Below, in pieces: positions 3,274 to 47,805 of a DNA stretch of 51,538 nucleotides. Within the stretch, counting starts at the first letter, position 1; the number at the start of each line of letters is the position of its first letter. The position numbers were made by a program, and so were the translations under genes. The notes below the pieces were generated by a model. The model saw only the letters and a program-made list of their open reading frames with translations. It had not been told where the DNA came from and did no database searches. Origin of the DNA: a virus (lineage: Duplodnaviria > Caudoviricetes); IMG/VR virus record IMGVR_UViG_3300048571_000060, positions 1-51,538 of that record. The stretch is one strand, 5' to 3'.

Positions 3274-5331
3274 ATGGGAATAGAAGATATTTGGCTTGAT
3301 AAGATGCGTGATTTTCACGACAAACTATACCAATATAAGACGGTTAAAGCAGTACCGTCTGAGTGGGTTGAAAAAAACATTATACTAACAAATGAGGTTT
3401 CAAGATTCAGCGGACGATTTAGCTACGACCTGTCGCCATACGCTCGTGAAATTATTGACCATTTACATCCATCCAACCCGTCCAGAGTTGTGACGGTAAT
3501 GAAGGGGGCTCAATCAGGAATTACGCAAGGGGTAATCGTGCCTGGTATGGCGTGGATTATTGATGAGCATCCTGACAATTTTTTATTCACTGCTTCAGAC
3601 AAAGAGATAGCCAAAAAAACCATCGTACAACGTTTTGACCCACTGATGCGTTCAAGCGGACTAAGTCATTTGATTAGACCAAATGTCATACGAGCAAAAG
3701 GCCAGCGTTCAGGTGACACTGACTTTTCAAAAGAGTTTGCTGGCGGAAATGCAATCATCGAGGGAACGAACAATGCAGGTAAGTTCAGGTTCTTTTCTGT
3801 GAAAACTGTTTTTATGGATGATTTCGATAACGCACCTAGAGCCGATAAGACAGAGGGGTCAATTCGTAAGCTGGTTGAGGGACGTCAAACTTCATACGGT
3901 AATTTGGCGAAAACTTATTATGTGAGTACACCAACAATCACGCAGACATCAAATGTTTATGAGATGTATATGCAAGGCGACCAAAGGAAATGGCATTGGC
4001 CCTGTCCTGATTGTGGTGTTTATGTGCCAAGTGAATGGCAAATTAAACTTGAAGACGGCAGTTATGCTGGAATCGTTTGGGAATTGGACGAGCAAGACAG
4101 GTTAATTAAATCAAGTGTGGCGTTTAGATGTCCAGAATGCGGCTACAGAATCACGAATCAAGAGAAGCATGATTTGAATATATTGGGAAAATGGATACCT
4201 ACTGCTGAGCCAGAGGATGATACGATAATAAGTTACTACATGAACTCACTAATTATTCCGCCGGGCTTTATTAATTGGGTTGATTTGGTTAAGGAGTGGC
4301 TGAAAGCAGTACCGCCAAAGGGGAAAATCAATGTTGATTTGCTGAAAGTTTTCAACAACGTTCGTCTTGGTTTGCCGTTTGAGGAGATTGGTGAGATTCC
4401 AAAAATCATGCAGTTAATGGAAAACGTTCGTGATTATAAATTGGGTTACATTCCTGATGTGACTTCTGAAAAGGATGGCAACGGTGAGATTGTTTTGATA
4501 ACGTTAGCGGCTGACTTAGGTGGTATTATGAATAGTGAAGTTGAGGACGTTCGAATTGACTGGGAGATTGTAGCCTGGTCAGCCAACGGAGCAAGATACG
4601 GAATCAATCAGGGAAGCTGTGGTACTTTTAAACGTAACTTCAAGAAAAACAAAAAAGAAAAGGATGATGATTTTGACCGTGAAAGATATACTTATATGCA
4701 CGGAATGAAAAACAGCGTTTGGCCGTTGCTTGAGGAAATTATCAAAGGCGATATACCAAGTGAATCAGGTAATACCTACAATGTGAAGTTGAGTTTGGTT
4801 GATACCGGACACTTTACACAACAGGCCTATCAGTTTGTTAAGTCGTGTCACAGCGGAGCCAATTGGGTTTTTGGTGTTAAAGGTGTGCCTGAACAAAATT
4901 ACAGACGTGATTCAAAAGATGTGGCCGCTGTTAAGAAATCACCCAACGTTGCCAATTTATATTTGCTTGATGTTGAACAGCTGAAAGATAAATTAGCCGC
5001 CAATATGAAGTTACGTTTGAGTGATGACGGAACGCAAGAGGATGGCTTTATGAATTTCCCACAACCTGAAAAAGGAAAGTATTCGTTGAAAGGATATTTC
5101 AAACATTTTGAAAGTGAGACACGAAAAGAAAAAACTGAAAACGGAGAATCAGTTGGCTTTAAATGGGAAAAGAAAAACTCAACAGTTGAAAATCACTTTT
5201 GGGATATAAGTGTGTATAACGATGCGGCGCGATATGTGTTTATAGATTTAATCAAACGCACGAATCCAACCAAATACAAAGACTTGAATTGGGCCACGCT
5301 TGTTGAGTTGGTTTTAGGTTTTGCAAAATAA
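3274..5331 (+). CDS. terL: terminase large subunit (lambda GpA family); probable start MGIEDIW at 3274
   Basis: Walker A 'VMKGAQSGIT', Walker B 'VFMDDFD', 'VSTPT', CPxCG zinc knuckles, C-terminal 'NHFWD'. Confidence 0.93.
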   Translation: MGIEDIWLDKMRDFHDKLYQYKTVKAVPSEWVEKNIILTNEVSRFSGRFSYDLSPYAREIIDHLHPSNPSRVVTVMKGAQSGITQGVIVPGMAWIIDEHPDNFLFTASDKEIAKKTIVQRFDPLMRSSGLSHLIRPNVIRAKGQRSGDTDFSKEFAGGNAIIEGTNNAGKFRFFSVKTVFMDDFDNAPRADKTEGSIRKLVEGRQTSYGNLAKTYYVSTPTITQTSNVYEMYMQGDQRKWHWPCPDCGVYVPSEWQIKLEDGSYAGIVWELDEQDRLIKSSVAFRCPECGYRITNQEKHDLNILGKWIPTAEPEDDTIISYYMNSLIIPPGFINWVDLVKEWLKAVPPKGKINVDLLKVFNNVRLGLPFEEIGEIPKIMQLMENVRDYKLGYIPDVTSEKDGNGEIVLITLAADLGGIMNSEVEDVRIDWEIVAWSANGARYGINQGSCGTFKRNFKKNKKEKDDDFDRERYTYMHGMKNSVWPLLEEIIKGDIPSESGNTYNVKLSLVDTGHFTQQAYQFVKSCHSGANWVFGVKGVPEQNYRRDSKDVAAVKKSPNVANLYLLDVEQLKDKLAANMKLRLSDDGTQEDGFMNFPQPEKGKYSLKGYFKHFESETRKEKTENGESVGFKWEKKNSTVENHFWDISVYNDAARYVFIDLIKRTNPTKYKDLNWATLVELVLGFAK

Positions 5332-43267: not shown

Positions 43268-43753
43268 TTATTCAGCTATGTAAATCGCTGAATTCTTATC
43301 GTGCTCTATACATTCCACTGAAAGCAATTTTACTCGATTTTCTATAAAATCACTTTCAATTTGCTGTTCGATGAAGTCAAATACATACTTTGCAAAAGCT
43401 TCACAACCAACATTTGGCATAGTTCTTAATTGAATTAACTGCATTGTATCGAAGTCGTCAAAATATTCATACATAGGGTCATCACTTGCGACAACTGTTG
43501 TATGGTCAAACATATAATTGAACCAGTCTTTAATGGTTACAACTTTTTTAGGTAGTTTTCCTGGCGTGTTTTCTTTCAGCTTTGTTTTTAAAAATCCAAA
43601 GTCTTGGACCCAATTTTTATCATCAAGTCCTTTGGCTTGAAAGGTAAGTTTGAAACTAACTGAATATCCGTGTAAAAAGTTGCAATGCGAATTCGCTCGC
43701 CATTGTCTAAAACAGGTACTAAAACCGTCTACTAATTTAGTTGATTGATACAT
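43268..43753 (-). CDS. queD: 6-carboxy-5,6,7,8-tetrahydropterin synthase
   Basis: 'CFRQWRANSHCNFLHGY', 'WVQDFG', 'FDHT', 'GCE', 'EHDKNSA'. Confidence 0.9.
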   Translation of the reverse strand: MYQSTKLVDGFSTCFRQWRANSHCNFLHGYSVSFKLTFQAKGLDDKNWVQDFGFLKTKLKENTPGKLPKKVVTIKDWFNYMFDHTTVVASDDPMYEYFDDFDTMQLIQLRTMPNVGCEAFAKYVFDFIEQQIESDFIENRVKLLSVECIEHDKNSAIYIAE

Positions 43754-43755
43754 AA

Positions 43756-44406
43756 TTATTTAGTGTTTAAAAATTCGTTTCTTACTTCTTGATTTTCTTT
43801 AAACGACCCGCCCAATTTTCTTGTTGTGGTCCAGCAGTTTTTATCCTCAATCCCTCTTGCTTTAACGCAATGGTGAACAGCTCGTATTTCAACAGCTACG
43901 TCTTCAGTTTCCAAAATTAAAACCAATGCCGCTTGTATCTGCAAAGTCAAACGTTCCTGAATTTGAGGTCGCTTACTAAAAAACCTGACAATCCTGTTTA
44001 ATTTTGAAAGCCCCAAAACTTTGTCCTTTGGAATGTAGGCAACTTTGGCGACACCTTCAATGTTTTGAAAGTGATGCTCACACACACTACTCACATCAAC
44101 ACCGCCCTCAATAACCATTTCGTCAGCTTTGAATTTGTTATGCACGTTGGTACATTTTGGAAAGTGGTCATAATTTAATCCTTCAAAAATCTCACAGCTG
44201 AACATCTTTGCAATTCGCATTGGTGTATCCTGCAGACTGTCGTCATTTAAGTCAAGGCCTAACGCTTTCATAATGTGCGTAAAACTTTCCTCAATAATTG
44301 TTTTTTGCTCTTCAGTTTTGTATTTACCATTCACAAATGGCGTTTCAATACCAAGTTCCTTCAAATGTTCGTGAACCTGTTTTCCTAATTCCTTGTCTGT
44401 GTTCAT
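43756..44406 (-). CDS. folE: GTP cyclohydrolase I
   Basis: 'DTPMRIAKM', 'SVCEHH', 'GLSKLNR', 'RPQIQERLT', 'HHCVKARG'. Confidence 0.96.
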   Translation of the reverse strand: MNTDKELGKQVHEHLKELGIETPFVNGKYKTEEQKTIIEESFTHIMKALGLDLNDDSLQDTPMRIAKMFSCEIFEGLNYDHFPKCTNVHNKFKADEMVIEGGVDVSSVCEHHFQNIEGVAKVAYIPKDKVLGLSKLNRIVRFFSKRPQIQERLTLQIQAALVLILETEDVAVEIRAVHHCVKARGIEDKNCWTTTRKLGGSFKENQEVRNEFLNTK

Positions 44407-44726: not shown

Positions 44727-44923
44727 ATCTTACTAAAATATTTATCAATTGTCTTACTTATCATATAATGGCTTACTCCAAATTTTTGCTTCATCGCTTC
44801 ATATGTATTGTTCTTTTCCTTCAAATAGAACTCAATTATCTGTTCTTCAAGATATGGCGTTAACTCAACAGGCGAAAGCTTTGTTCCGTTATTATTAAAA
44901 CGGGAGGTCGTCTTGCTCTTCAT
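44723..44923 (-). CDS. small HTH-like protein
   Basis: 'TYEAMKQKFGVSHYMISKTI' HTH pattern. Confidence 0.55.
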   Translation of the reverse strand: MKSKTTSRFNNNGTKLSPVELTPYLEEQIIEFYLKEKNNTYEAMKQKFGVSHYMISKTIDKYFSKI

Positions 44924-46118
44924 TTATTTTTCCATTAAATTCATTCGCTTGATGCGAAGGTGATTCAGTACTTGCGGCTATTCCGTTATAGTCAACCCAA
45001 TAACGCTGAATGCCGCCCTTCATAATTTTGTGCTTGGTGTGTTTTGCCAATGCTTTGCCCATTGGAACTGAACTCATCTTTGATTGAAACGCTGGAACAT
45101 TAACCAATATTTTCTGTATCACTTCACTGCCTGAAAGCATCTCGCCATCACCCTTTGCATTGTTGCAAGTAAAGTATCGTAAAAACAATTCTTCCTCCAA
45201 ACTAACAGTTCTAAATTTTTCATTTGATTGGTTGATTTCACGGATTTCATCAATATTGAACCAATGCCTGTAACCGTCTTTCCATAGCTTATACGCTTGA
45301 GCCCAAATCATATCAGGGTTGATTTTATGTCTATAATCAATACTTTTTACCTTAAACACCAACCAACGTCTGTTTCCTGTTGTATCTGATAGAAACTTAT
45401 CCTCGTTGACTGAGCCTAAAAAAGATGCTCTTCTGACAAGATGTGACGTGTACCGCCCATAAGATTTACGAACGCTGATTCGTTGTCTTGTGATATATGA
45501 TTTAATTGCTGAAATGTCATTGCTTCGCAAAGTTTCAAGTTCGTCCAAGTGAATAAACCAATATTGACTCAAGTACATTGTGTGGTCCTTGTTTTTGGTG
45601 TCAATATTTCCTTCATACAGATATTCAGATTGAAATTGCTTTGGCAATAATGAACGCATCCACCTGGTTTTTCCAACTCCTTGTCCGGATTGAAAAACCA
45701 AACAAACGTCATTTACGCTGTCTGTTCGCAGTAGGCAGTCAATACATCCAACAAGATACCGTTCTAAAGTTTTTTCAAAGTGCTTATCATTATCAGTCTT
45801 GATAGTTTTTGAAATCTTTTTAATCCAATTTTTACCGTCCCATTTTGCAAGGTTGTCAAAGTATTCTTCAAATGGATTGTATTCTGTGGCAAAATCCATA
45901 CTTTCAATAAATATATCAACCTTGTCTGAGGGAACGTCTATGTGTTCAGCCATCAACTCAAGCAGTATTGATTTTCTATATCTATCGTCGTATTTTTTCC
46001 ATTTTGAATTCTTTTTGTTTTTCCTAAACTCATAGAAGTTGGTTACAACATTGAAACGAAATATGTATTTAGATGAAATGTAGTTGAAAGCATTGCTGTT
46101 CTTTCCATTAAATTTCAT
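44895..46118 (-). CDS. VapE/VirE-like P-loop helicase
   Basis: 'YNPFEEY', 'WDG', 'SGQGVGKT', 'LDEL', 'RKSYG', 'FLSDTTGNRRW'. Confidence 0.88.
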   Translation of the reverse strand: MKFNGKNSNAFNYISSKYIFRFNVVTNFYEFRKNKKNSKWKKYDDRYRKSILLELMAEHIDVPSDKVDIFIESMDFATEYNPFEEYFDNLAKWDGKNWIKKISKTIKTDNDKHFEKTLERYLVGCIDCLLRTDSVNDVCLVFQSGQGVGKTRWMRSLLPKQFQSEYLYEGNIDTKNKDHTMYLSQYWFIHLDELETLRSNDISAIKSYITRQRISVRKSYGRYTSHLVRRASFLGSVNEDKFLSDTTGNRRWLVFKVKSIDYRHKINPDMIWAQAYKLWKDGYRHWFNIDEIREINQSNEKFRTVSLEEELFLRYFTCNNAKGDGEMLSGSEVIQKILVNVPAFQSKMSSVPMGKALAKHTKHKIMKGGIQRYWVDYNGIAASTESPSHQANEFNGKINEEQDDLPF

Positions 46119-46319
46119 TTATTTTCTATTTTTTGTTGCTTTGGTAATTCTATGAATTTTTGCGCGGTTGTATCTTTGTTCGTCTATTTCATTAACTCTG
46201 CCTTTTTTGTCAGCTTCCCAAAATTTGAAGCCGTTTTTTGTTGTAAGTAGCACTCTGCCATCTTTTAATTCTATTTCACTGCTTATTAGGTTTTGATTTT
46301 TGAATTCGGTTAGCTCCAT
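46119..46319 (-). CDS. hypothetical protein
   Basis: 66-aa ORF abutting its neighbours. Confidence 0.6.
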   Translation of the reverse strand: MELTEFKNQNLISSEIELKDGRVLLTTKNGFKFWEADKKGRVNEIDEQRYNRAKIHRITKATKNRK

Positions 46320-46321
46320 AA

Positions 46322-46693
46322 TTATTGAGTGGTTAATGTTATTGTTCCTTTTCTTACCTCTGCATGAATGACGTTCTTAACTACAATTCTTTGCGTGGCC
46401 GTCAATTGGCTTTGTTTTTGCATTATGAGGTTATATTCTTTTAAATATTCACCAAGCGTCTTAAATGGCATTTTAGGCACTTTGCTCATCAGCATTGGTT
46501 TCGTAAAATTCATAAATGCACTATACTCTTCATCAGTCTTGAATGACTCACGTGTTACAGGTATGGGTACTTTTTGAATTGGTTTTGGGACGATTACAGG
46601 TTTGACTGTTTGCTTATTAGCTCTAGATATTGCAATTGTTTTGCCGTGGTCTACGTGACCAATCGTGCCTAATGGTATTACTTTCTTTGCCAT
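46322..46693 (-). CDS. hypothetical protein carrying an EF-Tu G1/P-loop peptide at its N-terminus
   Basis: MAK...GTIGHVDHGKT; the remainder lacks GTPase motifs. Confidence 0.7.
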   Translation of the reverse strand: MAKKVIPLGTIGHVDHGKTIAISRANKQTVKPVIVPKPIQKVPIPVTRESFKTDEEYSAFMNFTKPMLMSKVPKMPFKTLGEYLKEYNLIMQKQSQLTATQRIVVKNVIHAEVRKGTITLTTQ

Positions 46694-46881
46694 TCTTTCA
46701 AATGTAATTAGTTAAGCAAATCAAGGACAGGTTGTAGATACAACGACAACAAGATGAAATTTGTGAAGATGTCCTGTCCTTTATTGCTATAAAATATTTT
46801 TTGAAATGTTTTTTGATTGCTTCATCTTATTATTGCATCTACATGAGCGAAGTAAAGCATAACATTTCGGATTGGCAAGAA

Positions 46882-47805
46882 TTATTTTTTCTTTTTGTCT
46901 TTTTTCTTATCCTTCTTTTTGCCGACTTCAGCCAACGCATCATTGTCAATGCCCTTGTCTTTCTTTTTGTCTTTGGATTTTTCAGATTTTTTATCTTTCT
47001 TTTTATCCCCTTTGACATGAGCTTCAACTTCTGCAACTACAACCGGATTATCCTTTGGCAAGTTTGCCAACAGTAAATCAACAATTCTGTTCACAACACC
47101 ATCCTCATCAGTGTCTGATGTAATGATTGGAAGTTTGTGTTTGTTGATTAGCTTGATAAGTTTTGTTAAACTCATACCTGCTAAATGCTCGTGAAATTCA
47201 CCAACCGTGTCATATCCGCTAACCATTTCGATAAGTTGTGCAACATCTATAGGTGGTTCGAAAGCTTCAGCCGGAGTTGCTGGCGTTAGAGTAGTCGCAT
47301 CTTCGTCCTCACTGCTGTCTTTATCTTTTTTCTTATCCTTCTTTTTGTCCTTGCCGTCTTTTTCAGACTTGTCCTTGCCCTTGTCAGCCTTTTTGTCTTT
47401 TTTAGCTTCTTTTGATTCGTTTGTTGGTGCTTCAACATCCATTTCAGCCGCGAATTTTTTCATGTCATCAACAATCGCTTTAACAAAATATGCACGACCT
47501 TTATTGGTTTGCTTAACATCCAAAGCATGAGTCAACAATGACTTGCCAAACGTTCTTGTTCTGATATCAAAATCAGGATTAATTTCCAATAATGCTTCCT
47601 CAATTTCTTTTGCAATCATGTAGGTTCCTTTTGAGTCACTGGCTTCAGCGAACACAATGTGGTCAATTACCAAAGAATCTTCTTGACTGCCTGGTTTTGA
47701 TTTTTGTTCAACAACTTTTTTTCCAACTGCTTCAGCAAAAGCGGCCACAACCTTTGGGTCGCCTAACGCTTCTAATACTGCTTTAACTACTAAATTCTGT
47801 TCCAT
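46882..47805 (-). CDS. hypothetical protein with two Lys/Asp low-complexity tracts
   Basis: 307 aa; KDKK repeats; preceded by the 26-bp leader element. Confidence 0.75.
   Translation of the reverse strand: MEQNLVVKAVLEALGDPKVVAAFAEAVGKKVVEQKSKPGSQEDSLVIDHIVFAEASDSKGTYMIAKEIEEALLEINPDFDIRTRTFGKSLLTHALDVKQTNKGRAYFVKAIVDDMKKFAAEMDVEAPTNESKEAKKDKKADKGKDKSEKDGKDKKKDKKKDKDSSEDEDATTLTPATPAEAFEPPIDVAQLIEMVSGYDTVGEFHEHLAGMSLTKLIKLINKHKLPIITSDTDEDGVVNRIVDLLLANLPKDNPVVVAEVEAHVKGDKKKDKKSEKSKDKKKDKGIDNDALAEVGKKKDKKKDKKKK

What the first reader, a model, noticed from the sequence alone, without database searches (positions are those of the whole stretch)
46322..46693. Small phage protein starting with an exact EF-Tu P-loop peptide
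Residues 9-19 (nt 46669-46637) are GTIGHVDHGKT, identical to the G1 motif of bacterial EF-Tu, after an EF-Tu-like MAK start. The remainder is a Pro-rich linker and short helical domain with no DxxG or NKxD, so it is not a GTPase. An 11-residue exact match is unlikely by chance. Inference: a molecular mimic, either a decoy for defences that target EF-Tu (for example Lit-type proteases or Doc-type kinases) or a competitor for an EF-Tu partner.
Basis: partly seen in the sequence, partly recalled or inferred. Interest (0 to 1): 0.7.

Follow-up and report, generated by a model that had tools for sequence, protein, structure and literature searches.

The report
Phage protein arm copying EF-Tu's P-loop
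A small accessory protein of a freshwater phage carries, on a floppy N-terminal arm, a letter-for-letter copy of the phosphate-binding loop of the bacterial translation factor EF-Tu; it cannot be a GTPase, its relatives carry only blurred versions of the loop, and what the arm binds is still unknown.

Summary
ORF 46322-46693 (-) encodes a 123-aa protein whose residues 9-19 are GTIGHVDHGKT, and no other G-motif is present.

It is not a GTPase. AlphaFold gives a disordered arm (residues 1-40) and a confident three-helix C-terminal domain with no known fold or family.

It is not an assembly artefact or a recent tuf fragment:
- Other runs' contigs carry the same allele.
- Similarity to tuf stops sharply outside about 36 nt.
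- Codon choice is the phage's own.
- The first codons of the motif are shared by descent with a relative.

The protein belongs to an orphan family of 38 small proteins. In 3 of 3 related viral contigs the family member sits directly upstream of a VapE-like helicase.

None of the 37 homologues has the exact peptide. Many keep a hydrophobic strand plus glycine loop at the same place, some with perfect Walker-A spacing, and many have lost it.

Best reading: an accessory early protein whose conserved C-domain does the family's job. Its fast-evolving arm displays a P-loop-type peptide of EF-Tu type.

Specific EF-Tu mimicry remains possible but untested. This scan reported similar EF-Tu peptides on other phage DNA before.

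The parts
46322..46693 (-). Gene for the 123-aa protein P0001 (stop codon 46322-46324)
   Evidence: Single possible start. 37 homologues found.
46637..46669 (-). Eleven codons encoding GTIGHVDHGKT, identical to the EF-Tu G1 region. The Walker A GHVDHGKT is 46637-46660.
   Evidence: The exact 33-mer occurs in 1 stretch of the genome collection of 185,579 species, a Pseudomonadales MAG tuf with random flanks.
46553..46693 (-). N-terminal arm and linker (residues 1-47): predicted disordered, variable in the family
   Evidence: AF2 block means are 46, 46, 51 and 63 for residues 1-40, with residues 1-18 below 50. Arms of the 38 members are listed.
46325..46552 (-). Conserved orphan C-terminal domain (residues 48-123), three helices at 54-63, 80-91 and 99-115
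   Evidence: pLDDT 88-97. Invariant N107 and R114; near-invariant T64, P76, Y87, L97, Q101, R102, H110, G116 and L120. No Foldseek, Pfam or PDB match.
46694..46881 (-). 188-nt intergenic region ahead of the gene. It holds a 9-bp inverted repeat (within arms 46719-46731 and 46773-46785) around a conserved 41-nt core.
   Evidence: 3 compensatory pairs against L005.
46119..46319 (-). 66-aa ORF (phrog_18387, unknown function) between P0001 and the helicase
44895..46118 (-). VapE/VirE-like helicase (407 aa), downstream neighbour
   Evidence: Pfam PF05272 at 3.3e-42. PHROG DNA helicase at 5.9e-79.
46882..47805 (-). 307-aa ORF (phrog_17367, unknown function), upstream neighbour

Best explanation
P0001 is an accessory early-region protein of a complete 51.5-kb freshwater phage related to Cellulophaga phage phiSM. 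It belongs to an undescribed family of small proteins (81-146 aa) with two parts.

1. A strongly conserved three-helix C-terminal domain of about 75 residues, with no known fold. It carries the family's common function. That function is inferred to be binding of a phage or host partner or of nucleic acid in the replication module.

2. A disordered, fast-evolving N-terminal arm joined by a Pro/Lys-rich linker. Ancestrally the arm carried a short hydrophobic strand followed by a glycine-rich, Walker-A-type loop.

In this phage the loop is letter for letter the EF-Tu G1 motif. The peptide is inherited inside the family. It was not freshly copied from a host tuf gene.

The protein cannot hydrolyse GTP. 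The arm most likely works as a tethered, displayed peptide that engages a partner.

Shown: anatomy, family, synteny, non-GTPase status, non-recent origin. Inferred: that the arm is a binding or bait peptide. Unresolved: whether its identity to EF-Tu matters.
For: Record and relatives
- The record is a complete virus record with direct terminal repeats.
- It shows 72% nt identity to phiSM-like Cellulophaga phages over the GTP cyclohydrolase and VirE region.

Family
- 38 members with a conserved C-domain.
- No fused longer forms were found.

Structure
- Arm pLDDT is below 50 and the C-domain is above 88.
- The same pattern appears in a distant member, P0028: arm 51-71, with a helix after the loop.

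Arm motif
- 15 of 38 arms match [ILVMAW][ILVMAT]G.{1,5}G, against a mean of 2.8 and a maximum of 8 in 2000 shuffles.
- A strict Walker A occurs in 4 of 38, against 0.15 expected.
- The motif occurs on both sides of the midpoint root of a tree built from the C-domain only.
- It occurs in 8 of 9 rows of one basal clade, with two invariant Gly.

Descent
- The window and L005 share the codons GGC ACG for the first Gly-Thr of the motif, and L004 has GGA ACG.
- P0005 reads GTVGNVGKT. P0017 reads TVGHIAHGTTT, and its best PDB hits are EF-Tu.

Not a recent tuf copy
- Flanks match a tuf gene at 10/45 and 13/45 nt.
- Bacterial tuf contigs in four metagenomes align only to 46636-46671.
- Codon choice is typical of the phage (simulation P = 0.38).

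Accessory status
- tblastn of 50,697 phage records at E <= 10 gave only the N-terminal peptide of Aggregatibacter phage S1249 (2 records of that one phage), so no family member is seen there and phiSM lacks the family.
- The slot upstream of the helicase varies.
- The helicases are 81-82% identical, while the small protein is 53-57% identical to the same three phages' copies (P0006, P0011, P0012).
Against: No partner or ligand was identified and no experiment exists.

The arm has been lost in many family members: 23 of 38 lack the regex motif, although P0001, P0016 and P0017 carry variants that the regex misses. It is therefore dispensable for the family's core function and could be neutral baggage.

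The family rows are related, so the shuffle statistics overstate independence. The tree has only 75 columns and many open forks, so the ancestral state of the four inner loop residues is not settled.

A purely generic arm does not explain an exact 11-of-11 match.
Confidence: 0.45

Rival explanations
1. Specific EF-Tu mimic. In this phage lineage the arm is selected to be identical to EF-Tu strand beta-1 and P-loop. It acts as a decoy, pseudosubstrate or competitor for a host, competitor or defence factor that recognises that part of EF-Tu.
For: - The 11/11 identity is far beyond chance, while the adjoining linker is unrelated to EF-Tu and differs from the relatives' linkers.
- If the motif is ancestral, as searches suggest, keeping 11 of 11 residues while the sister arms drifted implies purifying selection here.
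- Unrelated small viral ORFs carry the same peptide. L015 against L031: 24 of 27 EF-Tu-derived residues are identical with 9 synonymous codon changes, against 16 of 42 identical in the rest.
- PHROGs holds two such families, phrog_27465 and phrog_12626.
- These ORFs also lie in early or replication regions.
- An enzyme aimed at this very loop exists: the Tre-Tu toxin ADP-ribosylates EF-Tu Asp21 (PMC9825190, passages read).
- EF-Tu is used or cleaved by defence systems: Lit, type IV Thoeris and Avs7 (PMC13581612, passages read).
Against: - None of the 37 homologues keeps the peptide.
- No close variants exist to measure selection. The nearest relative is 62-66% identical, and the other runs carry the same allele.
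- The arm is predicted disordered, whereas Tre-Tu needs folded GTP-bound EF-Tu (PMC9825190).
- In that paper's structure legend, Avs7 binds EF-Tu domains II-III, not the P-loop.
- By recall, Lit and Doc act at other sites.
Confidence: 0.22
2. Relic without a function of its own. The arm is a decaying remnant of an old capture of a GTPase 5' end, or a short-patch conversion from tuf helped by the pre-existing GT[IV]GH...GKT similarity. The exact match in this phage is historical accident.
For: - Arms are lost or degraded in many lineages. P0011 has lost the glycines that its arm-mate P0006 keeps.
- Arms and C-domains are reshuffled among close relatives: P0005 and P0007 share an arm, and P0006 and P0011 share another, yet the C-domain tree pairs P0005 with P0011 and P0006 with P0007 at 99% support. 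Recombination at this spot therefore happens.
- Identity to tuf at the DNA level cannot discriminate. Any tuf matches 23-31 of the 33 nt.
Against: - Neutral retention of 11 of 11 residues next to a freely diverging linker is improbable.
- The GxxxxGK spacing persists in distant lineages while the inner residues vary (7 of 38 by a loose pattern), which is the signature of constraint.
- Two Gly are invariant in 8 of 8 members of one clade despite linkers that cannot be aligned.
- Conversion is not supported by flanks or codon use.
Confidence: 0.2
3. Working mini P-loop. The strand, Walker-A loop and following helix bind phosphate groups (NTP or DNA backbone), perhaps after oligomerisation, and assist the neighbouring VapE-like helicase.
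For: - Walker-A spacing is kept in several distant members.
- A helix follows the loop in P0028.
- P0028's arm hits ArsA, NRas, VCP-like ATPases and a designed 'phosphate-loop protein' (6c2u) in PDB sequence space.
- The family member lies directly upstream of the helicase in 3 of 3 related viral contigs.
- By recall, short beta-P-loop-alpha peptides have been reported to bind nucleotides and ssDNA.
Against: - The arm has low confidence in both AF2 models.
- There is no Walker B and no beta-sheet core.
- Some arms look Rossmann-like, not P-loop-like (P0025).
- Many members lack the arm.
- The family is absent from cultured phiSM-like phages that carry the same helicase.
Confidence: 0.1

Closest known systems
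Bacterial EF-Tu (Pfam PF00009 GTP_EFTU), end of strand beta-1 and G1/P-loop
   Same: Residues 9-19 are identical to the G1 region as seen in the tuf genes fetched here (for example L067, and the 59 IMG/VR matches). The Walker A is GHVDHGKT.
   Different: Only residues 4-21 match (15.5 bits against a cut-off of 26.5). There is no G3, G4 or G5 and no G-domain fold. The protein is 123 aa, against about 390-400 aa for EF-Tu.
Small phage ORFs that start with the EF-Tu N-terminus (phrog_27465, e.g. Aggregatibacter phage S1249 D11S_2248; phrog_12626; IMG/VR loci L010/L059 and L015/L031/L036)
   Same: A small non-GTPase phage protein that displays GTIGHVDHGKT and sits in an early or replication-recombination region. 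P0001 hits phrog_27465 at E 1.2e-4 over residues 2-19.
   Different: Those ORFs copy a longer stretch, about 27-35 residues including the EF-Tu N-terminus and helix alpha-1, and that stretch is their best-conserved part. P0001 copies only 11 residues. Its conserved part is an unrelated C-domain, and its relatives do not keep the peptide.
Generic P-loop and Rossmann beta1-glycine-loop-alpha1 openings
   Same: Family arms resemble them: P0028 resembles ArsA, NRas and VCP, and P0025 resembles lactate dehydrogenase, glycine oxidase and D-aspartate oxidase.
   Different: All these hits are weak (E 0.008 to above 1). There is no nucleotide-binding domain behind the loop.
Tre-Tu / Tri-Tu (T6SS Rhs ADP-ribosyltransferase acting on EF-Tu Asp21 in the P-loop; PMC9825190)
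   Same: It shows that the very loop copied here is a target of a bacterial toxin. P0001 keeps the equivalent Asp (D15).
   Different: The known immunity protein Tri-Tu works as a lid on the toxin, not as an EF-Tu mimic. The toxin needs folded EF-Tu-GTP. No such toxin is linked to this phage or its unknown host.

Membership tests
Translational GTPase / EF-Tu (PF00009) | G1 Walker A, GxxxxGK[ST] | tested here: met
   GHVDHGKT at residues 12-19.
Translational GTPase / EF-Tu (PF00009) | G3 DxxG and G4 NKxD motifs | tested here: not met
   The regex finds none.
Translational GTPase / EF-Tu (PF00009) | Score above the Pfam gathering cut-off over the G domain | tested here: not met
   15.5 bits against 26.5. 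Only profile positions 2-19 of 188 match.
Translational GTPase / EF-Tu (PF00009) | Alpha/beta G-domain fold | tested here: not met
   AF2 gives a disordered arm plus three helices and no strands.
phrog_27465 (EF-Tu-N-terminus mini-proteins of phages) | Match along the whole 59-position profile | tested here: not met
   P0001 matches only profile positions 9-26 (E 1.2e-4). S1249's ORF matches positions 1-59 at 4.2e-45.
New orphan family (P0001, P0004-P0026, P0028-P0031, P0033-P0042) | Conserved C-terminal domain with invariant N107 and R114 and near-invariant T64, P76, Y87, L97, Q101, R102, H110, G116 and L120 | tested here: met
   Alignments A2 and A4. E-values to members range from 1e-36 to 6.5e-6.
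New orphan family | Position directly upstream of a VapE-like helicase | tested here: inconclusive
   Met in L004, L005 and L006. In the window a 66-aa ORF lies between. The context of the other 34 members could not be fetched (closed; empty).
Anti-defence decoy or pseudosubstrate | A defined host or defence enzyme that binds or modifies the displayed peptide | not testable with these tools
   The host is unknown and no binding data exist.
P-loop NTPase (general) | Walker B and a five-stranded core behind the Walker A | tested here: not met
   The protein is 123 aa with an all-helical ordered part. Across 38 members Pfam gives only sub-threshold hits: AAA_14 in 2 of 38 and nSTAND3 in 1 of 38.

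The most novel reading that the evidence does not exclude
The arm is one instance of a wider, undescribed phage strategy: displaying strand beta-1 and the P-loop of EF-Tu on small early proteins. The display would act as bait or pseudosubstrate for a host, competitor or defence enzyme that recognises or modifies this loop, for example an Asp21-directed ADP-ribosyltransferase. In this family the bait is tethered to an orphan effector or anchor domain. It is evolving in an arms race, which would explain the drift, loss and recombination of arms, and the exact copy in this phage.
Probability: 0.17. Interest if true: 0.8.

Novelty: new variant of a known kind. Interest (0 to 1): 0.5.

Why it matters
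If the arm really acts through its identity to EF-Tu, it would point to an unknown host or defence activity aimed at the EF-Tu P-loop. It would also give a handle, bait peptide plus tether plus anchor domain, for fishing that activity out.

The case is useful even without that. It shows a family in which a Walker-A-type loop survives for a long time on a disordered arm with no NTPase domain behind it. It also adds an independent architecture to the small phage ORFs that carry EF-Tu's N-terminal peptide (phrog_27465, phrog_12626, IMG/VR loci).

I found no description of those ORFs in three literature searches. I saw only the listings and the starts of the abstracts, plus passages of two papers.

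The conserved C-terminal domain is a new orphan family of phiSM-like phages, next to the VapE-like helicase.

Tried and rejected
GTPase reading: rejected.

Assembly chimera with a tuf read: rejected, because independent contigs span the site.

Recent tuf fragment: rejected.
- The exact 33-mer scan of the genome collection found one Pseudomonadales MAG tuf.
- I read that as the chance level, by my own rough estimate that a few exact hits are expected among 185,579 species.
- DNA identity over the 33 nt is uninformative. It is 23-31 of 33 for 59 tuf-like matches in 59 of the 60 IMG/VR loci. One locus, L025, has its match cut by the end of the locus and dropped out of my scripts.

Fold and family of the C-domain:
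- Foldseek against PDB: best E 4.5.
- Foldseek against BFVD: best E 0.089. A Cellulophaga phage phi18:2 protein scores E 0.22 with probability 0.84, a lead only.
- PDB sequence profile: best E 0.066.
- Pfam on 38 members: only sub-threshold hits, Tfb2_C in 5 of 38 (best 5.2e-4), CHDNT in 3 of 38 and BrxC_wHTH in 1 of 38.
- ESM Atlas: scores of 0.80 or lower and TM below 0.5.
- None of these is good enough to name a fold.

Fused longer forms: none found, which is weak evidence.

Binding to the neighbouring helicase: complex prediction gave 'no answer' (score 0.00, mark 0.32). This is neither for nor against binding.

Expression: no RNA holder was listed.

Population variation: the four runs laid (X2, X7, X9, X10 of the 13 listed) gave no variant of the gene. 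X2, X7 and X9 carry the same allele and X10 does not cover the gene apart from tuf look-alikes. No dN/dS could be measured.

More family members or contexts: the metagenome scan with A1 found none. The viral scan with P0017 found none.

Rows dropped from the family:
- P0027, a 775-aa low-complexity repeat protein and a spurious hit.
- P0032, a 52-aa fragment.
- A6 (36 rows, used for the second fold) also left out P0034 and P0035, which have long branches.

One search returned exactly 60 loci. That may be a cap, so the list of other EF-Tu-peptide ORFs is a lower bound. The window's own record was not among them.

Ideas not tested:
- The arm as a DnaK-type binding site (recalled motif).
- An antisense RNA against host tuf mRNA. 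The listed tuf contigs in the same samples differ by 2-6 letters over the 34-36 nt.
- A Bacteroidetes-type promoter box just before the ATG. The consensus is recalled, and the box is not conserved in L005 by eye.

Supplementary files of the two papers were not opened.

Full report
**1. The observation**

The minus-strand ORF 46322-46693 translates to a 123-aa protein, P0001, beginning MAKKVIPLGTIGHVDHGKTIAISRANK.
- Residues 9-19 are GTIGHVDHGKT.
- A regex check finds one Walker A (GHVDHGKT) and no DxxG, [NT]KxD or SA[KL].
- The ATG at 46693 is the only ATG/GTG/TTG before the conserved domain, and an in-frame stop lies seven codons upstream.
- Pfam GTP_EFTU matches residues 4-21 only, at 15.5 bits against a cut-off of 26.5.
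- The first 30 residues find EF-Tu (and EF-1-alpha) chains among the PDB sequences shown, best E 9.5e-4.
- With the window's own residue frequencies, the 11-mer is expected about 5e-10 times in the six frames of the window.
- Contigs assembled from other public runs span the motif and both flanks with 0 or 1 differences (X9 record 25 and X2 record 12). It is not an assembly chimera.

**2. Where it sits**

The window is a whole virus record of 51,538 bp with direct terminal repeats. It is related to Cellulophaga phage phiSM and its kin, with 72% nt identity over the GTP cyclohydrolase I and VirE region. Near-identical DNA occurs in runs labelled freshwater metagenome.

The gene is the first after a 188-nt intergenic gap. 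Downstream, on the same strand, come:
- a 66-aa ORF (phrog_18387);
- a 407-aa VapE/VirE-like helicase (PF05272, 3.3e-42);
- small ORFs;
- 7-deazaguanine pathway genes, GTP cyclohydrolase and QueD-like.

**3. The family**

Word-indexed and exhaustive HMMER searches gave 37 homologues of 81-146 aa, none with a Pfam domain or a name. One spurious low-complexity hit and one 52-aa fragment were dropped.

The C-terminal 75 residues or so are well conserved. N107 and R114 are invariant, and T64, P76, Y87, L97, Q101, R102, H110, G116 and L120 are nearly so.

AlphaFold2 with the family alignment gives pLDDT 88-97 for residues 41-120, with helices at 54-63, 80-91 and 99-115. Residues 1-18 are below 50.

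I could not name a fold for this domain:
- Foldseek finds nothing at E <= 0.001 in PDB or BFVD.
- A profile search of PDB sequences finds nothing.
- Pfam on all 38 members finds nothing above threshold.
- The ESM Atlas finds nothing convincing.
- No longer, fused forms were found.

Context:
- In the three related viral contigs that could be fetched, the family member lies directly upstream of the helicase (L004, L005, L006).
- Cultured phiSM lacks the family. It has a 340-aa Toprim-like gp62 in that slot.
- gp62 relatives are present in L004 and L006 but absent from the window.
- The helicases of these phages are 81-82% identical. The small protein is 53-57% identical to the same three phages' copies, P0006, P0011 and P0012.
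- This is therefore an accessory, fast-evolving gene in a variable slot. It is not a core replication gene.

**4. The arm in the family**

None of the 37 homologues has GTIGHVDHGKT, but the arm is not random either.

Arm sequences seen:
- GTVGNVGKTTT (P0005)
- GTVGHTGQP (P0006)
- IAVVGGGNIGKATAVSRANK (P0004, the nearest relative, which shares the following ...SRANK with P0001)
- TVGHIAHGTTTT (P0017)
- IVGQGKVGKT (P0013)
- VGAGKVGKTT (P0023)
- IVGAGQIGKTT (P0028)
- LVGSGVVGAST (P0025)

Counts:
- 15 of 38 arms match a strand-plus-two-glycine pattern, against a mean of 2.8 and a maximum of 8 in 2000 shuffles of the arms.
- A strict Walker A occurs in 4 of 38, against 0.15 expected.
- A loose pattern occurs in 7 of 38.

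Distribution:
- On a tree built only from C-domain columns, motif-bearing arms lie on both sides of the midpoint root.
- In one basal clade, 8 of 9 rows carry the motif. Two glycines are invariant there, although the linkers behind them cannot be aligned.
- Many lineages have lost the arm.
- Arms and C-domains are recombined among close relatives. P0005 and P0007 share an arm, and P0006 and P0011 share another, yet the C-domains pair P0005 with P0011 and P0006 with P0007 at 99% support.

What the arms resemble in PDB sequence space:
- P0017's arm resembles EF-Tu (top three hits, E 0.38-0.74).
- P0028's arm resembles ArsA, NRas, VCP-like ATPases and a designed 'phosphate-loop protein'.
- P0025's arm resembles Rossmann openings such as lactate dehydrogenase.
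- All of these hits are weak.

**5. Origin of the exact copy**

- Against a real tuf gene that happens to share the whole 33-mer (L067), the flanks are random, at 10/45 and 13/45.
- In four metagenomes, many bacterial tuf contigs align to 46636-46671 only and then run on unlike. This gives a depth spike and loose ends at exactly those borders.
- Codon choice within the 33 nt is typical for this phage given the residues (simulation P = 0.38).
- In the DNA alignment of gene starts, the window and L005 share GGC ACG for the first Gly-Thr, and L004 has GGA ACG. At least the first half of the motif is therefore inherited within the family.
- Together with P0005 (a two-residue gap, otherwise 7 of 9 identical by my count) and the full-length P0017 version, an EF-Tu-like loop seems old in this part of the family. 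The window's phage would have kept it intact, or restored it.
- The tree is too weakly resolved (75 columns, 10 open forks) to fix the ancestral inner residues.

**6. The same peptide elsewhere in phages**

A degenerate-DNA scan of IMG/VR for the 11-mer returned 60 loci, which may be a cap. My scripts read 59 of them. L025's match is cut by the end of the locus.

Most are full-length tuf genes, either host flanks or giant-phage EF-Tu genes, or contig-end fragments. Several are small complete ORFs that start like EF-Tu and then diverge:
- L010 and L059: about 95 aa with a Cys-rich tail.
- L015, L031 and L036: about 70 aa.
- L061: the same 59-aa ORF as in Aggregatibacter phage S1249 (both records are 43,970 bp).
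- L007: a 304-aa protein with the motif inside.

In L015 against L031, the EF-Tu-derived part is 24 of 27 identical with 9 synonymous codon differences, while the rest is 16 of 42 identical. That is purifying selection on the peptide in that family.

PHROGs holds two such families of unknown function.

These ORFs also lie in early regions:
- between NinB- and NinG-like genes in L036 and S1249;
- after DnaD- and DnaC-like loaders in L059.

Earlier notes of this scan report the same kind of thing on other genomes. They are AI notes. I had found the IMG/VR cases before reading them.

**7. Literature**

Three searches listed no paper on small phage proteins carrying the EF-Tu P-loop peptide. I saw the listings and the starts of the abstracts.

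- Passages of PMC9825190 show that the T6SS Rhs toxin Tre-Tu ADP-ribosylates Asp21 of the EF-Tu P-loop. It needs EF-Tu-GTP, and its immunity protein works as a lid on the toxin.
- Passages of PMC13581612 list EF-Tu as a target (Lit, type IV Thoeris) or a component (Avs7, through domains II-III) of defence systems.
- The cleavage and phosphorylation sites of Lit and Doc are recalled, not checked here.

**8. Reading**

Shown:
- a real, translated, non-GTPase protein;
- an orphan conserved C-domain;
- a disordered arm with a P-loop-type motif that is old in the family, variable and often lost;
- no recent tuf import;
- an accessory position next to a VapE-like helicase.

Inferred:
- the C-domain carries the family's function;
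- the arm is a tethered peptide that meets a partner.

Odds (they do not sum to 1; the remainder is left open):
- about 0.45 for this general reading;
- 0.22 that identity to EF-Tu is itself the point (mimic or decoy);
- 0.2 that the arm is a relic without function;
- 0.1 that it is a working phosphate-binding mini-loop helping replication.

The complex prediction with the helicase gave no answer and counts neither way.

**9. Verdict**

It gains some indirect support from other phage ORFs.

This is a new orphan family and a new variant among phage proteins that carry a host-like peptide. Interest is moderate (0.5).

Noticed in passing
window 46719-46785 (minus strand, upstream of the gene); L005 about 3790-3850: A 9-bp inverted repeat encloses a 41-nt core that is nearly identical in the related contig L005. 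The stems differ at 3 pairs, and all 3 changes are compensatory. It could be a terminator of the upstream gene, an operator, an RNA element or part of an origin.
   Followed up: partly
L036 8525-8872; L002 2474-2653 (Aggregatibacter phage S1249); L059 4688-5011; L010 about 1250-1540; L015 about 1466-1690: Small viral ORFs begin with the EF-Tu N-terminus through GTIGHVDHGKT and then diverge. They lie between NinB- and NinG-like genes (L036, S1249) or after DnaD- and DnaC-like loaders (L059). In L015 against L031 the EF-Tu part is 24/27 identical with 9 synonymous changes, and the rest is 16/42 identical. PHROGs families 27465 and 12626 hold such proteins.
   Followed up: partly
L007 4007-4921: A 304-aa viral ORF carries GTIGHVDHGKTTLAAAL in its middle (residues about 180-196) between unrelated sequence.
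   Followed up: no
window 46599-46692: In four freshwater metagenome runs the summed contig depth jumps to 26-448 over this stretch only. Many bacterial tuf contigs align to 46636-46671 and then diverge, with loose ends at 46636/46638 and 46669/46671. This is a caution for read-mapping studies of this phage.
   Followed up: yes
window 44895-47805 compared with L001 (phiSM), L004, L005 and L006: The slot upstream of the VapE-like helicase is variable. The gp62-like 340-aa Toprim-like gene is present in phiSM, L004 and L006 but absent from the window (no ORF of that size in L005). The 66-aa gp61-like ORF is in the window and in phiSM. The P0001 family is in the window, L004, L005 and L006 but not in phiSM.
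   Followed up: partly
proteins P0005, P0006, P0007 and P0011: N-terminal arms and C-terminal domains have been recombined. Arm pairs (P0005 with P0007; P0006 with P0011) disagree with the well-supported C-domain pairs (P0005 with P0011; P0006 with P0007).
   Followed up: partly
window 43268-44406: GTP cyclohydrolase I-like and QueD-like genes, as in the 7-deazaguanine cluster annotated in phiSM (QueC, QueF, a tRNA-ribosyltransferase-like gene and a ParB-like gene). This suggests modified DNA bases in this phage.
   Followed up: no
L014, L016, L019, L026, L037, L042, L048, L049, L053 and L066 (contigs of 250-620 kb): Very large IMG/VR contigs encode full-length or near full-length EF-Tu-like ORFs, often with non-canonical N-terminal extensions.
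   Followed up: no
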